The position numbers and the translations under genes are program-made. A DNA stretch of 64,000 nucleotides from Octopus vulgaris (lineage: Eukaryota): positions 7,688,001-7,752,000 of the forward strand of contig OX597817.1 in the NCBI GenBank assembly GCA_951406725.2. Direction: 5' to 3'. Positions within the stretch are counted from its first letter, which is position 1. Each line of letters opens with the position of its first letter. Below are positions 7,391 to 56,052 of the stretch, one piece after another. The notes under the pieces were generated by a model. That model saw only the letters and a list, made by a program, of their open reading frames with translations, did no database searches and was not told the origin of the DNA.

Positions 7391-8330
7391 TCTCCTTCCT
7401 TCTGGTCTCCCCCTTTTCCATCTCTTCTCTCTTCTTTTTCTGCTGCTCTGGCGGAGAGCTCACTCTACCATTTTTCTTTCTGTTTTTTTAAACATTGTGA
7501 ACCCTTCCCCCGTTGCTTTCACCTTTATCTTGACCTGTAGGACCTGGTCCGTGCTGTCCTGCCTCTCCGTCTGCTCTATCTGTTGTTCCCTCTGGGAGCA
7601 CCTCGCCTTCATGTGGCCCTTTTCCCCACATGTGTAACATATAGGTGACCTGCCCTCCACCACCACTCTCAATCTTATGTCATCGGGCAACACTATCTCT
7701 TCGACAATTCTGTTTAGGTCTTCCACTGTTTCTTGAACGGTTAACTCTATTCCATATCCCCAGTAGTTAACTCTTTCAGTTCTTGTGGTCTTCAGTATCT
7801 TGGCCTCCTCATTCATGTCATACATTATGGCTATCATCAGCCACACTTCTTTCAGCTCTGGGGGCACTTTGCCAACTCGCATCCTGGCCACACGTTTGCC
7901 ACAGATCGATGGCAAAAGTACCCATTCTTCCGATCTTATTGCCTCCGTGGAATGCTTAATTGCTTCATCTTCTGATGCAAAACGCACCTCCACAGTAGCG
8001 TTCTTTCTCTCTCTTGTTATAAATGTGGTTAGTCTTTTTATATTCTTAAAACATTATTCAATAGCCTCTATTGTCGCTATTTCTATTTTATCTTCATTGT
8101 CACCGTTCTTTTCATTACATTAGTTGTTAGTTCAACAGGCGTTAATTTCAGTGTATTTCCGTCTCTTTCCAGCAACTGCTCGCATTCCTTTTTCGCATTC
8201 ATTTCTCGCATTCATTTTTCGAGGTCCAACCTTTTTTTCTCGTACCTCCAGCGTTTCCACGTCTATTTCTTTTCAAGTTGCAGCCATATAACTGTGACCA
8301 CCTGCTGGCGTTATCTCCATTTTTCCCACA
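7391..8330 (-). pseudogene. Degenerate second ORF1/Gag-like zinc-knuckle retroelement copy
   Basis: ORF 7460-7993 (VEVRF...RMRVGKVPPELK...VNYWGYGIEL...VVVEGRSPICYTCGEKGHMKARC) aligns by eye with the 493-aa protein (VEVRC...RVRVPKVPPEIK...VNWKGFGVEL...VIVEGRKPNCYLCGSRGHIKKEC). A putative start MEITPAGGHSYMAAT at 8320 is followed by a stop; the 3' end is lost. Confidence 0.8.
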
Positions 8331-16040: not shown

Positions 16041-16438
16041 AAGGCGGTGAGCTGGCAGACACGTTAGCACGCCGGGCGAAATGCGTAGCCGTATTTCGTC
16101 TGCCGTTAGGTTCTGGTTTCAAATTCCACCGAGGTCGATTTGTCTTTCATCCTTTCGGGGTCGATTAAATAAGTACCAGTTACGCACTGGGGTCCATATA
16201 ATCGATTTAATCCGTGTGTCTGTCCTTGTTCGTCCCCTCTGTGTTTAGCCCCTTGTGGGTAGTAAAGAAATAGGTATTTCGTCTGTCTTTACGTTCTGAG
16301 TTCAAATTCCGCAAGAGGTCGACTTTGTCTTTCATCCTTTCGGGGTCGATAAATTAAGTACCAGTTACGTACTGGGGTCGATCTAATTTACTGGCCCTCT
16401 CCCCCAACATTTCGGGCCTTGCGCCTAGAGTAGAAAAG
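16041..16438 (+). mobile_element. Composite (dimeric) SINE B with 16-bp TSD
   Basis: AATAATTAATAAATAT at 16025-16040 and 16439-16454. Structure is head + body + tail 1 (CCCCTTGTGGGTAGTAAAGAAA) + second body + tail 2. Confidence 0.88.
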
Positions 16439-36086: not shown

Positions 36087-40497
<4,411 letters not shown>

Positions 40498-40932: not shown

Positions 40933-41140
40933 TATATATATATATATATATTAAAACATTAAAGACCCGTCGTTGCCGGGTCATAGTGCTAGTGCATGTA
41001 TATATGTGTATATATATGTGTACATATTACATGTACATCTATATATATATACATCTACACATAAAATGCAAAATACAAAGTTATATCTTGATATCGCTAG
41101 TGATAACAATACTCAAAATATATAACAGACTGGAATTGTT

Positions 41141-43050
41141 TTATTCCTACCCACAAGGGGCAACATAGAGGGGACAATACAATCGGGAAAATAAAATAAT
41201 GAATTATGAAGTTTGTACAATGTGGTGTAATGCCCACTCGATCCCCGAAATCGAGCGGTTACATTTCGTCATTTTTTATTCGTCAACAATATTTTCCAAA
41301 TAAAAACATTTTACACATTTTCAACATACATTTCAAAAATTTTACAAAGTTGAACATTTTTTTTTTTCAGAATTTAAAGACCTTTTTATCATTTCCAAAT
41401 TAAAGTTTTCACAATACCTTTTCTTTTATATATACTCCATTATCTCGACCAAATCTTGGTAAATTTCCATCGTTCGTGGCCACCTTGTAAGACGGCATTT
41501 CATATGTTTTGACACGTTCTTGCCAGCTGCCTCGATGAACGCCTCGGCGTTGTTCTCGTGGACGAGTGCACCTGTTTCTTTCCATTCGGTGCCCATCCTG
41601 ACCCACGTATATCCATCTGTTTCGCTTATTAAATCTTCCATCTCCTCACAGTGCCTGTGATGGATCAATGTTCCATAGTATTTGAATCTTTTATTCGTAC
41701 CTGCATTTTCTCTAGTTTTTCTCTTAGGACTTAATTCCTCTTTTTTCTCCTCTCTCGGTTTCTCTCTTTCTCTCTTTTTGCTTTCTCTTCTTTCTTTTTC
41801 CTTCTCTTGTCTTTTAGACTCTTTGTCTGTCGTCTCTCTACCCTGTGCTTTATGTTCCTTTCCTGTTGTTTCTTTTCCTTTTTGCATACCATCTTTTCCT
41901 TTCTCTTGGTTCTGTTCCTTCTCTTGTTCTTTTCCTGTTTTTTCTCTTTCCTTTAATGTACTTTCCTTTTCTTTCTCTTGCTTCTGCCTTGGCTCCTTCT
42001 CCACTACTTCTGCACCCTGTGAATTTTGCTCCTTTTCTACTATCTTCTTCCCTTTGTTTTCATTTTCCTTCAGTGCGCTGTTACTTCCCTTCTCTTGTTG
42101 TTTCTCCGTTATTTCCTTTTCCTTGTTTTCGCTGTTCTTTCCTTCGTATTCGTTTTCCTTCTCTCCACTTTGTGTCTCTTTTTGCTCCGCTGTGAATTCA
42201 TACAGCGGACATTCCTTTTTTATGTGCCCTCTTGATCCGCACAGGTAGCAATTCGGTTTTCTGCCCTCCACTATTACAATAATTGTTTTCTCGTTTTCTA
42301 TTTCTATTTGGAAGGGAAACCTTTCGATGTCTTCCATTGTGGCCATTAGCCACAACTCTACTCCGAATCCCTTCCAATTTACAACGTTCGTCTCCTTGAT
42401 TGACCCTATTTCTACTTCCTCCTTTGCTGCCCCAATAATGGCTGTTACCAGCATTTCTGTTTTAATTTCTGGGGGCACCTTTGGGACTCTTACCCGTACT
42501 CCTCGTCTTCCTTTATACGTCGGCCACATAGTGAAATTTTCGGCTTTCAGGACAGTGGAAGCTAATGAGGCCGCCACTTCCTTTGTTGCGCATCTCACCT
42601 CCACCGTCCCATATTTCTTTCCTCTGTCTACAAAAGTCGCTTTTTTCATGATGTCCCCCAGACATTTCTCTATTTCTTCAATCGCCACTCTCACCAGTTT
42701 TCTCGTGTTCCTGTCTTGCGTTCTATACGTTATCGTCTTGTTATTTCTCTCCTCTATTGTTTCCACAGGCGGGACCAGCTTCACGCTGTCACCCTCCCTT
42801 TTGACGAACTTCTCGTATTCCTTCAATTGTTCTTTTCTAAAGAACACTTCTCTTATTCTAAGAGACTCGTCACTTTTTGTTGTGGCGACCCCCGCGTAAG
42901 TCTCCATGACTTGAGGGTCGACACACCTTCTATAAAAGGTTCACACACGCAGCGGCAGACGCCTCGCGCGATTCAATTTTTTGACAATTTTTTAACAGTT
43001 TTTTTTCCAAATTTTTCACATACAAAATAACTAACCAACACACTCAATAA
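41141..43050 (-). mobile_element. Complete non-autonomous ORF1-only (HAL1-like) retroposon with 14-bp TSD
   Basis: Flanked by identical AGACTGGAATTGTT at 41127-41140 and 43051-43064. Contains a 143-nt 5' UTR, one 493-aa ORF and a 285-nt 3' UTR ending ...CCCCTTGTGGGTAGGAATAA. There is no space for an RT. Confidence 0.85.
41426..42907 (-). CDS. L1/Tx1-type ORF1 (Gag-like) nucleic-acid-binding protein, 493 aa, intact
   Basis: N-terminal TYAGVA (SYAxxA-like) motif, an RRM-like alpha/beta region, the CCHC zinc knuckle CYLCGSRGHIKKEC, a long K/E-rich linker and a C-terminal region of about 85 aa. No stops or frameshifts. Confidence 0.85.
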   Translation of the reverse strand: METYAGVATTKSDESLRIREVFFRKEQLKEYEKFVKREGDSVKLVPPVETIEERNNKTITYRTQDRNTRKLVRVAIEEIEKCLGDIMKKATFVDRGKKYGTVEVRCATKEVAASLASTVLKAENFTMWPTYKGRRGVRVRVPKVPPEIKTEMLVTAIIGAAKEEVEIGSIKETNVVNWKGFGVELWLMATMEDIERFPFQIEIENEKTIIVIVEGRKPNCYLCGSRGHIKKECPLYEFTAEQKETQSGEKENEYEGKNSENKEKEITEKQQEKGSNSALKENENKGKKIVEKEQNSQGAEVVEKEPRQKQEKEKESTLKEREKTGKEQEKEQNQEKGKDGMQKGKETTGKEHKAQGRETTDKESKRQEKEKERRESKKREREKPREEKKEELSPKRKTRENAGTNKRFKYYGTLIHHRHCEEMEDLISETDGYTWVRMGTEWKETGALVHENNAEAFIEAAGKNVSKHMKCRLTRWPRTMEIYQDLVEIMEYI

Positions 43051-43329
43051 AGACTGGAATTGTTAGCTCTTTTTTTTTCTCTACATTGTATACTTTATAG
43101 ACAATAGTCTTTTCTTTAATTTTTTATTATCCATCTCGACTATTCCATTTCTGCACGCTAATTATATTTTTAATTTATTCCCATTCATGTGAAACCACTT
43201 ATTTAAGTTCAAATTATTGATGCAATTTTATACCAATTGCTATTTTTACTTTTGTATGTTACGATTATATTGTACTTTAGTTTGATTTTAATTATTACTT
43301 ACTATATATAATTCAATTGTTATTATTAT

Positions 43330-43597
43330 TTTTATTGTTAAAGTGAAAGCATCTGACATAAAATAGAGAAATATTTTTGTTTCACTTTTAACACGTAATA
43401 CTGAAATAATGGAGAAGATATGCTATTGCTATGGGCCCGCTCTAGGCAAGAAGTTGAACATTTTGTTTTCCCATGAAACTACATGGACCCTAAGTAAGGC
43501 TTGTGTAAAATTTGAATGAAATTGGTTGGGTAGTTCTCAAGTTTTAGGGAAACATACAGACAGACAGGCACACATTCTCAGTTTTATATATATAAAG

Positions 43598-43598
<1 letters not shown>
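43330..43598 (-). mobile_element. Helitron-like 5' end fragment
   Basis: Minus strand A|TCTTTATATATATAAAACTGAGAATGTGTGCCTGTCTGTCTG resembles the 5' end at 11228. The 3' end was not located. Confidence 0.5.
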
Positions 43599-55876: not shown

Positions 55877-56052
55877 ACCTGATGATAGTTTCAGCTAGTA
55901 TCATTGTACTAGCCGTTGGCAGTACTGGTCGAATATTCGCAACTTCCTCATTGCGTGGTCTACGATTCTTTCAGATCTTAAGAATGGTACGCATGGATCG
56001 TAGAGGAGGGACATGGAAACTTCTCGGATCCGTCGTATGGGCACACCGTCAA
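55877..56052 (+). CDS. KCNQ: Internal coding exon of a KCNQ (Kv7) voltage-gated potassium channel: S3, S4 and S4-S5 linker
   Basis: Translates as (D)[58 protein letters not shown], containing the diagnostic KCNQ motif [23 protein letters not shown]. It is preceded by a polypyrimidine tract ending TCACAG (55876) and followed by the donor GTAAGT (56053). Length 176 nt, phase 1 start, phase 0 end. Confidence 0.97.

What the first reader, a model, noticed from the sequence alone, without database searches (positions are those of the whole stretch)
41127..43064. Complete ORF1-only retroposon (no RT) with perfect 14-bp TSDs: a HAL1-like non-autonomous element
Seen: a 1910-bp unit (41141-43050, minus) bounded by identical AGACTGGAATTGTT, with a short 5' UTR, one uninterrupted 493-aa ORF carrying a CCHC knuckle, and a 285-nt 3' UTR ending in AATAA. 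The TSDs show that the unit inserted in this form, so it is not a 5'-truncated LINE, which would keep ORF2 and lose ORF1. Established: L1/Tx1 ORF1 proteins carry RRM and knuckle domains, and ORF1-only HAL1 elements are known in vertebrates. Inference: this is a young non-autonomous family that keeps its own RNA chaperone or packaging protein and borrows RT/EN in trans. I am not aware of a description in cephalopods but could not search.
Basis: partly seen in the sequence, partly recalled or inferred. Interest (0 to 1): 0.85.

Follow-up and report, generated by a model that had tools for sequence, protein, structure and literature searches.

The report
RT-less octopus retroposons queue behind promoters
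An octopus retroposon that encodes only an RNA-binding protein sits, like five related families and a full LINE that likely moves them, about 40 bases after a TATA box inside another transposon, where they form head-to-tail stacks and likely take over that promoter in turn.

Summary
The unit is real and multi-copy: at least 33 near-full copies, none with ORF2. It is not a lone insertion. It lies inside a non-autonomous Helitron; 26 of 30 Helitron copies examined are empty. It shares its last ~50 nt with an autonomous L1/Tx1-type LINE (APE-RT), the likely helper. At least six diverged ORF1-only families exist. ORF1 (two predicted RRMs plus a CCHC knuckle) is under purifying selection (dN/dS 0.05-0.17 outside the linker). 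These elements cut 38-41 bp after the Helitron's TATA box in two Helitron variants with different sequence at the cut, and 40 bp after a mariner TATA box. The identical 14-mer ~330 bp from the TATA was never found filled. They build head-to-tail arrays of up to 23 units, mostly with older and autonomous units farthest from the TATA. The true duplication here is 9 bp; 5 of the 14 bases are the element's own 3' end. Closest precedents: TRE5-A.2, Tx1-Mar/SINEU, HAL1, HeT-A. Promoter activity and the targeting factor are inferred, not shown.

The parts
41136..43059 (-). ORF1-only retroposon, family A, including its 5' target-like tag and AACAA 3' end
41426..42907 (-). ORF1, 493 aa
42260..42766 (-). 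two predicted RRM-fold domains (about aa 48-216)
   Evidence: AlphaFold model, pLDDT about 70-88 per block; Foldseek best hits are tandem RRMs, E 1e-5; VIA Z 7-8; Atlas row with ZCCHC3-type RBD families at 0.90
42206..42253 (-). CCHC zinc knuckle (aa 219-234)
   Evidence: Pfam PF00098
41429..41695 (-). C-terminal domain after a charged linker, shared by ORF1-only families A, B and C; fold not resolved
   Evidence: dN/dS 0.17 A vs B; model pLDDT 48
41136..41185 (-). ~50-nt 3' tail shared with the autonomous LINE; small GC hairpin before AATAA
41127..41135 (-). 3' copy of the 9-bp target duplication
43051..43059 (-). 5' copy of the 9-bp duplication; the cut lies between 43060 and 43059
43093..43099 (-). 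TATA box of the host Helitron; its first T is 40 bp before the cut
43060..43598 (-). 5' arm of the host non-autonomous Helitron, starting with TC after an A
40953..41135 (-). 3' arm of the host Helitron; GC hairpin at 40964-40982; the CTAG end seen in other copies is altered here, so the outer limit is approximate

Best explanation
This is one copy of an ORF1-only retroposon family, likely mobilised by a co-resident L1/Tx1-type LINE with the same 3' tail, that sits about 40 bp after a TATA box in a non-autonomous Helitron and is likely transcribed from that box's promoter. Shown: multi-copy ORF1-only anatomy; shared tail; TPRT marks (5' truncation, duplications of about 13-18 bp at dispersed sites, cut at CA^Y); the fixed distance; head-to-tail arrays; purifying selection on ORF1. 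Inferred: RNA starts about 31 bp after the TATA, so the cut falls about 10 nt after the start site. The helper's ORF2 protein binds the tail and nicks the nearest CA^Y. Each newcomer lands between the promoter and the previous occupant, so arrays grow at the promoter end and the newcomer would take the promoter. ORF1 is likely kept because it packages its own RNA and likely helps bring it to promoter DNA, as proposed for TRE5-A ORF1 and TBP. Homology between target-derived tags on the RNA and the target likely helps the junctions form.
For: Copies. Empty sites and Helitron ends. Helper ORF2 of 1132 aa; best PDB match L1 ORF2p E 3e-63 against R2 1e-24. Shared tail; 323 exact tails, 0 in the reversed control; 67 of the 100 listed lie within 8 kb of another on the same strand, against 0.18% expected. 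Distance: at least 20 short-variant and 15 long-variant junctions lie 38-41 bp after the TATA with different sequence at the cut; mariner site 40 bp after TATAAA, downstream of a CCAAT box. Unused twin site: about 598 long Helitrons carry the same 14-mer ~330 bp from the TATA; 10 of 10 variant copies examined of 15 and 100 of 100 listed of 560 read as empty; short Helitrons number about 136. Start site: five Helitron-derived 5' tags carried to foreign sites begin 31-37 bp after the TATA, none earlier. Polarity: the youngest family C clade is 5'-most in four arrays; in a 23-unit array the first unit starts at TATA+40, the oldest C units and the autonomous unit are last. Independent insertion: filled Helitrons are no closer to each other (96.3%) than to empty ones (96.7%). 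Selection.
Against: No RNA start site, promoter assay or protein interaction was obtained. Targeting is not strict: 21 dispersed 5'-truncated insertions show a TATA-like box at -37..-43 in only 1 of 21 (background about 2%), and on the largest contig 4 of 35 tails are dispersed. Some full-length copies have no TATA at that distance (L292, L166), and a second repeated target is cut at both 42 and about 70 bp after a TATTTAAA. Families D-F also use a site about 28-30 bp after the TATA. Six of 35 mixed arrays, read by hand, have an autonomous unit upstream of an ORF1-only unit. Near-identical blocks in the 23-unit array (0-2 differences) point to local duplication as well. Most family C copies examined have an ORF1 frameshift at a C-run, which weakens a strict need for ORF1 in cis unless it is an assembly error. 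Family A lineages stay with one Helitron variant, which position alone does not explain.
Confidence: 0.68

Rival explanations
1. No tether. The helper endonuclease cuts CA^Y in open promoter chromatin, and target-derived tags at both ends of the RNA pair with the target. ORF1 is only a cis-acting RNA chaperone. Lineages that landed just after a promoter are the only ones expressed and so keep returning to copies of the same repeat.
For: Lineages stay with one Helitron variant or sub-site. 5' junctions often carry element-borne variants of the target. The cut shifts to 38 or 41 with the local CA^Y. Family C frameshifts. Kojima proposed co-transcription from the flanking transposon for SINEU (PMC4494074, passages).
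Against: Pairing alone predicts use of the identical site in long Helitrons, which was not found, so accessibility has to carry the whole effect. The mariner site was hit repeatedly at +40 by elements bearing Helitron tags with no homology to it.
Confidence: 0.4
2. The helper's ORF2 protein reads a DNA motif upstream (the TATA-containing stretch) directly and cuts at a measured distance; transcription factors play no part.
For: Fixed distance in both Helitron variants, which share the upstream 30 bp. Tx1-clade target choice is attributed mainly to the endonuclease (PMC4494074, passages).
Against: The mariner site shares only the TATA hexamer. Dispersed sites share only CA^Y.
Confidence: 0.15
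3. The copies spread mainly as cargo when the filled Helitron was copied by rolling-circle transposition, or by segmental duplication and unequal crossing-over.
For: Some loci share flanks or array order: L016/L022/L024, L003/L004, L029/L030; near-identical units in the long array.
Against: Filled Helitrons form no supported clade and match empty ones equally well. Arrays differ in make-up between loci. Sister units sit on different contigs. Dispersed truncated copies with their own duplications show retrotransposition.
Confidence: 0.06

Closest known systems
TRE5-A.2 / TRE5-A.1 of Dictyostelium discoideum (PMC5391098, PMC5911963; passages read)
   Same: ORF1-only derivative moved in trans by an APE-RT-zinc-finger partner of the L1 group; inserts at a fixed distance from a promoter; forms tandems; its ORF1 binds TBP in vitro.
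   Different: TRE5-A inserts about 47 bp upstream of Pol III tRNA genes in the opposite orientation and has its own promoter module. Here insertion is downstream of a TATA box, in the same direction, inside a Helitron; there are at least six ORF1-only families only about 25-40% identical to the helper's ORF1.
Tx1-clade elements that target DNA transposons: Tx1L in Tx1D, crocodilian Tx1-Mar with SINEU in Mariner-N4_AMi, Tx1-9_AMi in Harbinger (PMC4494074; passages read)
   Same: A DNA transposon as safe target, non-autonomous passengers, sequential tandem insertions, and a suggestion of transcription from the flanking transposon.
   Different: Target here is a Helitron; passengers encode a conserved ORF1 rather than being non-coding; the site follows distance from a TATA box and an identical sequence elsewhere is unused; arrays reach 23 units.
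HAL1 (half-L1) of mammals (PMC5753468; passages read; the primary paper was not held)
   Same: Non-autonomous, encodes ORF1 only, arose several times.
   Different: ORF1 here is two predicted RRMs plus a CCHC knuckle; no poly(A) tail in family A; site preference and arrays were not mentioned for HAL1 in the passages seen.
HeT-A with TART/TAHRE at Drosophila telomeres (PMC5537684, PMC13534243; passages read)
   Same: ORF1-only element in polar head-to-tail arrays mixed with autonomous relatives; promoter lies outside the 5' end of the transcribed unit.
   Different: Jockey clade, chromosome ends, promoter in the upstream neighbour's 3' UTR. Here arrays are interstitial, have target duplications, and the TATA box belongs to the host Helitron.

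Membership tests
ORF1-only non-autonomous LINE derivative (HAL1/TRE5-A.2 type) | Multiple copies with ORF1 joined directly to the 3' UTR, no ORF2 | tested here: met
   33 near-full copies among 40 scored; units of 1.65-1.95 kb in six families
ORF1-only non-autonomous LINE derivative (HAL1/TRE5-A.2 type) | TPRT marks: target duplications and 5' truncation | tested here: met
ORF1-only non-autonomous LINE derivative (HAL1/TRE5-A.2 type) | Autonomous partner with a shared 3' end | tested here: met
ORF1-only non-autonomous LINE derivative (HAL1/TRE5-A.2 type) | Mobilisation in trans demonstrated | not testable with these tools
   needs a retrotransposition assay
HAL1 proper | Derived from mammalian L1 | tested here: not met
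   ORF1 relatives that carry names are octopod proteins; architecture is two RRMs plus knuckle
L1/Tx1 group (helper) | ORF2 with APE, RT and C-terminal zinc motif, nearest to L1-type proteins | tested here: met
   homologues carry PF03372, PF00078, PF13966; best PDB hit L1 ORF2p
Tx1 clade specifically | RT groups with reference Tx1 elements in a tree | tested here: inconclusive
   no labelled Tx1 references were available; ZCCHC3-type RBD likeness of ORF1 and fish ORF2 hits bearing those domains are only suggestive
TRE5-type position-specific elements | Insertion upstream of Pol III genes | tested here: not met
   no Rfam match above gathering score in five target loci; insertion is downstream of a TATA box
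TRE5-type position-specific elements | ORF1 protein binds a promoter factor | not tested
   no complex prediction or binding data
Non-autonomous Helitron (host) | 5' TC, 3' hairpin and CTAG, inserted between A and T, no target duplication | tested here: met
   termini in copies L072-L100; the defining features are recalled; the window copy's own CTAG is altered
HeT-A type telomeric elements | Located at chromosome ends | tested here: not met
   interstitial positions on many contigs

The most novel reading that the evidence does not exclude
An animal L1/Tx1-type lineage uses its ORF1 protein to dock on Pol II promoter complexes and inserts about 10 nt after the start site. A guild of at least six old RT-less families keeps its own ORF1 to compete for that slot, each displacing the helper and one another from the borrowed promoter, so that arrays record a dated queue of promoter takeovers.
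Probability: 0.3. Interest if true: 0.88.

Novelty: new variant of a known kind. Interest (0 to 1): 0.74.

Why it matters
It bears on why RT-less retroposons keep a costly ORF1 gene, and gives a natural swap test: six diverged ORF1s on one helper. It adds a case where a non-LTR element's site follows distance from a TATA box rather than the sequence at the cut, with a built-in negative control (the unused twin site). The arrays give an ordered record of insertion. If the docking is general, these elements would hit host promoters too, and ORF1 could be of interest for start-site-directed gene insertion.

Tried and rejected
Host site as an RNA gene: Rfam on five loci gave only microsatellite-like sub-threshold hits. 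Expression: no RNA holder listed; contigs of two runs only guessed to be RNA and two of unknown kind cover the ORF but cannot show start, strand or level; not used as evidence. C-terminal domain: low-confidence model and no Atlas hit; no fold search was run on it. Pfam found only the knuckle in 13 ORF1s. ORF1 tree could not decide one or several losses of ORF2 (2 changes; one side of a branch in 26% of bootstraps). Order statistic was computed on 24 conforming arrays only (8.2 expected by chance) and is not a valid p-value. One search's pattern was looser than intended and matched empty sites; it serves only as a listing of them. A general TATA rule for dispersed truncated copies was rejected. 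Nine literature searches gave no description of this system. Repbase, Dfam, most subscription papers, the primary HAL1 paper and the external repeat library of PMC13282606 could not be seen, so the families may already be catalogued. Three look-ups of earlier scan findings were empty. No other cephalopod genome was searchable. The 5' ends of a few arrays (L304, L305, L310, L311, L171) were not reached or are lost.

Full report
Observation. The ORF (41426-42907, minus, 493 aa), its CCHC knuckle and the two 14-mers are as described. Named homologues are octopod proteins. A genome search scored 40 of 508 candidates and gave 33 near-full copies at 93-100% identity, all collinear over the ORF1-to-tail junction. 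A one-off deletion is therefore excluded.

The host. The flanks recur at many copies. They form a ~720-bp repeat starting with TC after an A and ending in a GC hairpin plus CTAG before a T, which are Helitron ends (features recalled). Of 30 host copies examined, 26 are empty with one 14-mer and 4 carry an insertion there. AACAA is the element's own end, also found at unrelated targets, so the duplication in the window is 9 bp. A longer Helitron variant holds an extra ~300 bp that resembles a decayed ORF1 piece.

The helper and the other families. Twenty 20-kb neighbourhoods showed head-to-tail arrays inside single Helitrons. They mix ORF1-only units with 4.3-5.3-kb elements that carry ORF1 and an ORF2 of up to 1132 aa. 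ORF2 is closest to L1 ORF2p among solved structures, and its homologues carry APE, RT and zf-RVT domains. Tx1 clade membership was not settled. Families A, B, C and the helper share the last ~50 nt almost exactly, D-F a related tail; upstream UTRs differ. ORF1-only units fall into six families; against the window protein B is 69%, C 61%, D and E 23-25% and the helper 27-28% identical over the alignment. dN/dS between A, B and C is 0.05-0.14 in the core, 0.17 in the C-terminal domain of A against B and 0.20-0.32 in the linker, with dS near or above 1. Within A the core ratio is 0.14 but the C-terminal ratio 0.94 (pooled pairs, not independent). The model shows two RRM-like domains before the knuckle.

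Clustering. The exact tail occurs 323 times, 0 in the reversed control. Strict patterns place 26 before the short-variant tag and 126 before the long-variant tag (the second pattern is two bases shorter). Of the first 100 listed, 67 have a same-strand neighbour within 8 kb; 0.18% is expected. On the largest contig 31 of 35 tails belong to such arrays, one of them judged by spacing only, and 4 are dispersed.

Position, not sequence. In the short variant the cut is ACAA^TTCC, in the long variant AACA^CATG. At least 20 short and 15 long junctions lie 38-41 bp after the first T of the same TATA box (four non-Helitron rows, two mis-sorted empty rows and two rows at another site were left out). The long variant also carries the short variant's 14-mer about 330 bp from the TATA. 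About 598 such copies exist against about 136 short ones. Ten of the 15 copies whose next base suggested an insertion were examined and all were empty; 100 of 100 listed of 560 read as empty. A mariner promoter-like site (CCAAT, then TATAAA) was hit at least twice at exactly +40. Another full-length pair follows CCAAT and E-box motifs without a TATA (L181), and one event lies 42 bp after TTTAAA upstream of an alpha-tubulin-like gene (name from recalled sequence). A second repeated target is cut 42 and about 70 bp after TATTTAAA. Against a strict rule: 21 dispersed, 5'-truncated insertions share only CA^Y (C 15, A 20, Y 18 of 21) and have a TATA-like box at the right distance in 1 of 21; two full-length copies show none (L292, L166).

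Transcription start, inferred. Elements found outside the Helitron carry Helitron-derived 5' tags. Five such tags begin 31, 32, 35, 35 and 37 bp after the TATA and none earlier. That fits the usual TATA-to-start spacing (recalled) and places the cut about 10 nt into the transcript. An internal promoter is not excluded, and no RNA start data were obtained.

Array growth. A fixed site next to the promoter predicts newest units first. In family C the youngest clade is 5'-most in four arrays. A 23-unit, 44-kb array starts at TATA+40, ends with three older C units and one autonomous element, and has one unit whose sister lies on another contig; it also has blocks differing by 0-2 bases, so local duplication contributes. 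By my reading, 29 of 35 mixed arrays have all autonomous units behind all ORF1-only units; six do not. A later age of the ORF1-only families would give the same order. Filled Helitrons are not a supported clade and match empty ones equally (the empty short copies were chosen as best matches to the window), so copying as Helitron cargo is not the main route, though a few loci are duplicates.

Unexplained. Family A splits into a lineage found only in long Helitrons or carrying their tag (support 99/97) and the rest in short ones; families B and C cross over. Pairing of target-derived RNA ends may explain this. Most family C copies examined are out of frame at a C-run, whether real or an assembly error.

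Comparison. TRE5-A.2 lacks ORF2, borrows it, inserts at a fixed distance from tRNA genes, forms tandems, and its ORF1 binds TBP in vitro (PMC5391098, PMC5911963; passages). Tx1-clade elements target DNA transposons with non-coding passengers in tandem, and transcription from the flank was suggested (PMC4494074; passages). HAL1 is ORF1-only (PMC5753468; passages). HeT-A forms polar arrays at telomeres (PMC5537684, PMC13534243; passages). A 2026 octopus repeat annotation lists L1-Tx1 and Helitron counts only (PMC13282606; two of three parts and a supplement search); PMC9115989 has no mention of Tx1 (term search); PMC8869645 gave background only (passages). Each ingredient has a precedent; the combination was not found in nine searches, with the gaps listed under Tried and rejected.

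Verdict. A real, ordinary-looking ORF1-only retroposon that turns out to be part of a promoter-proximal insertion system with a helper and several old parasitic families. New variant of a known kind; interest 0.74.

Noticed in passing
window 7553-8098 (-): Decayed ORF1 of another, older family, about 38% identical to all families examined, with a CCHC knuckle.
   Followed up: partly
window 55882-56052 (+): Exon of a KCNQ-type potassium channel, E 1e-21. No upstream exon was found in the window by motif, so whether the element lies in its intron is open.
   Followed up: partly
window 36929-39443 (+): Unrelated LINE fragment with endonuclease-like and RT frames (RVT_1 E 5e-30).
   Followed up: no
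window near 16249 (+) and 33331 (-); many loci: An abundant short repeat ends in a tail much like that of families D-F and is often followed by a tRNA-like SINE sequence; possibly a non-coding passenger of a related LINE.
   Followed up: no
G000:C7:100087000-100131600 (L284-L289): 44-kb array of 22 ORF1-only units plus one autonomous unit inside one Helitron.
   Followed up: yes
L248, L250, L258, L282, L179, L182, L163: Second repeated target with shared flanks over 1 kb and two cut sites, each used by a different tail variant; its identity is unknown.
   Followed up: partly
L016, L022, L024, L069-L070: One insertion upstream of an alpha-tubulin-like gene, copied with a tandem gene cluster.
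   Followed up: partly
L013 and other long Helitrons: The extra ~300 bp of the long Helitron resembles a captured ORF1 fragment (37% over aa 79-149), so the host may have taken up a piece of its own parasite.
   Followed up: partly
P0092, P0102, P0103: ORF1 relatives in Octopus bimaculoides (P0092 groups with families A-C, support 95/94) and Argonauta hians; whether they are ORF1-only is unknown.
   Followed up: partly
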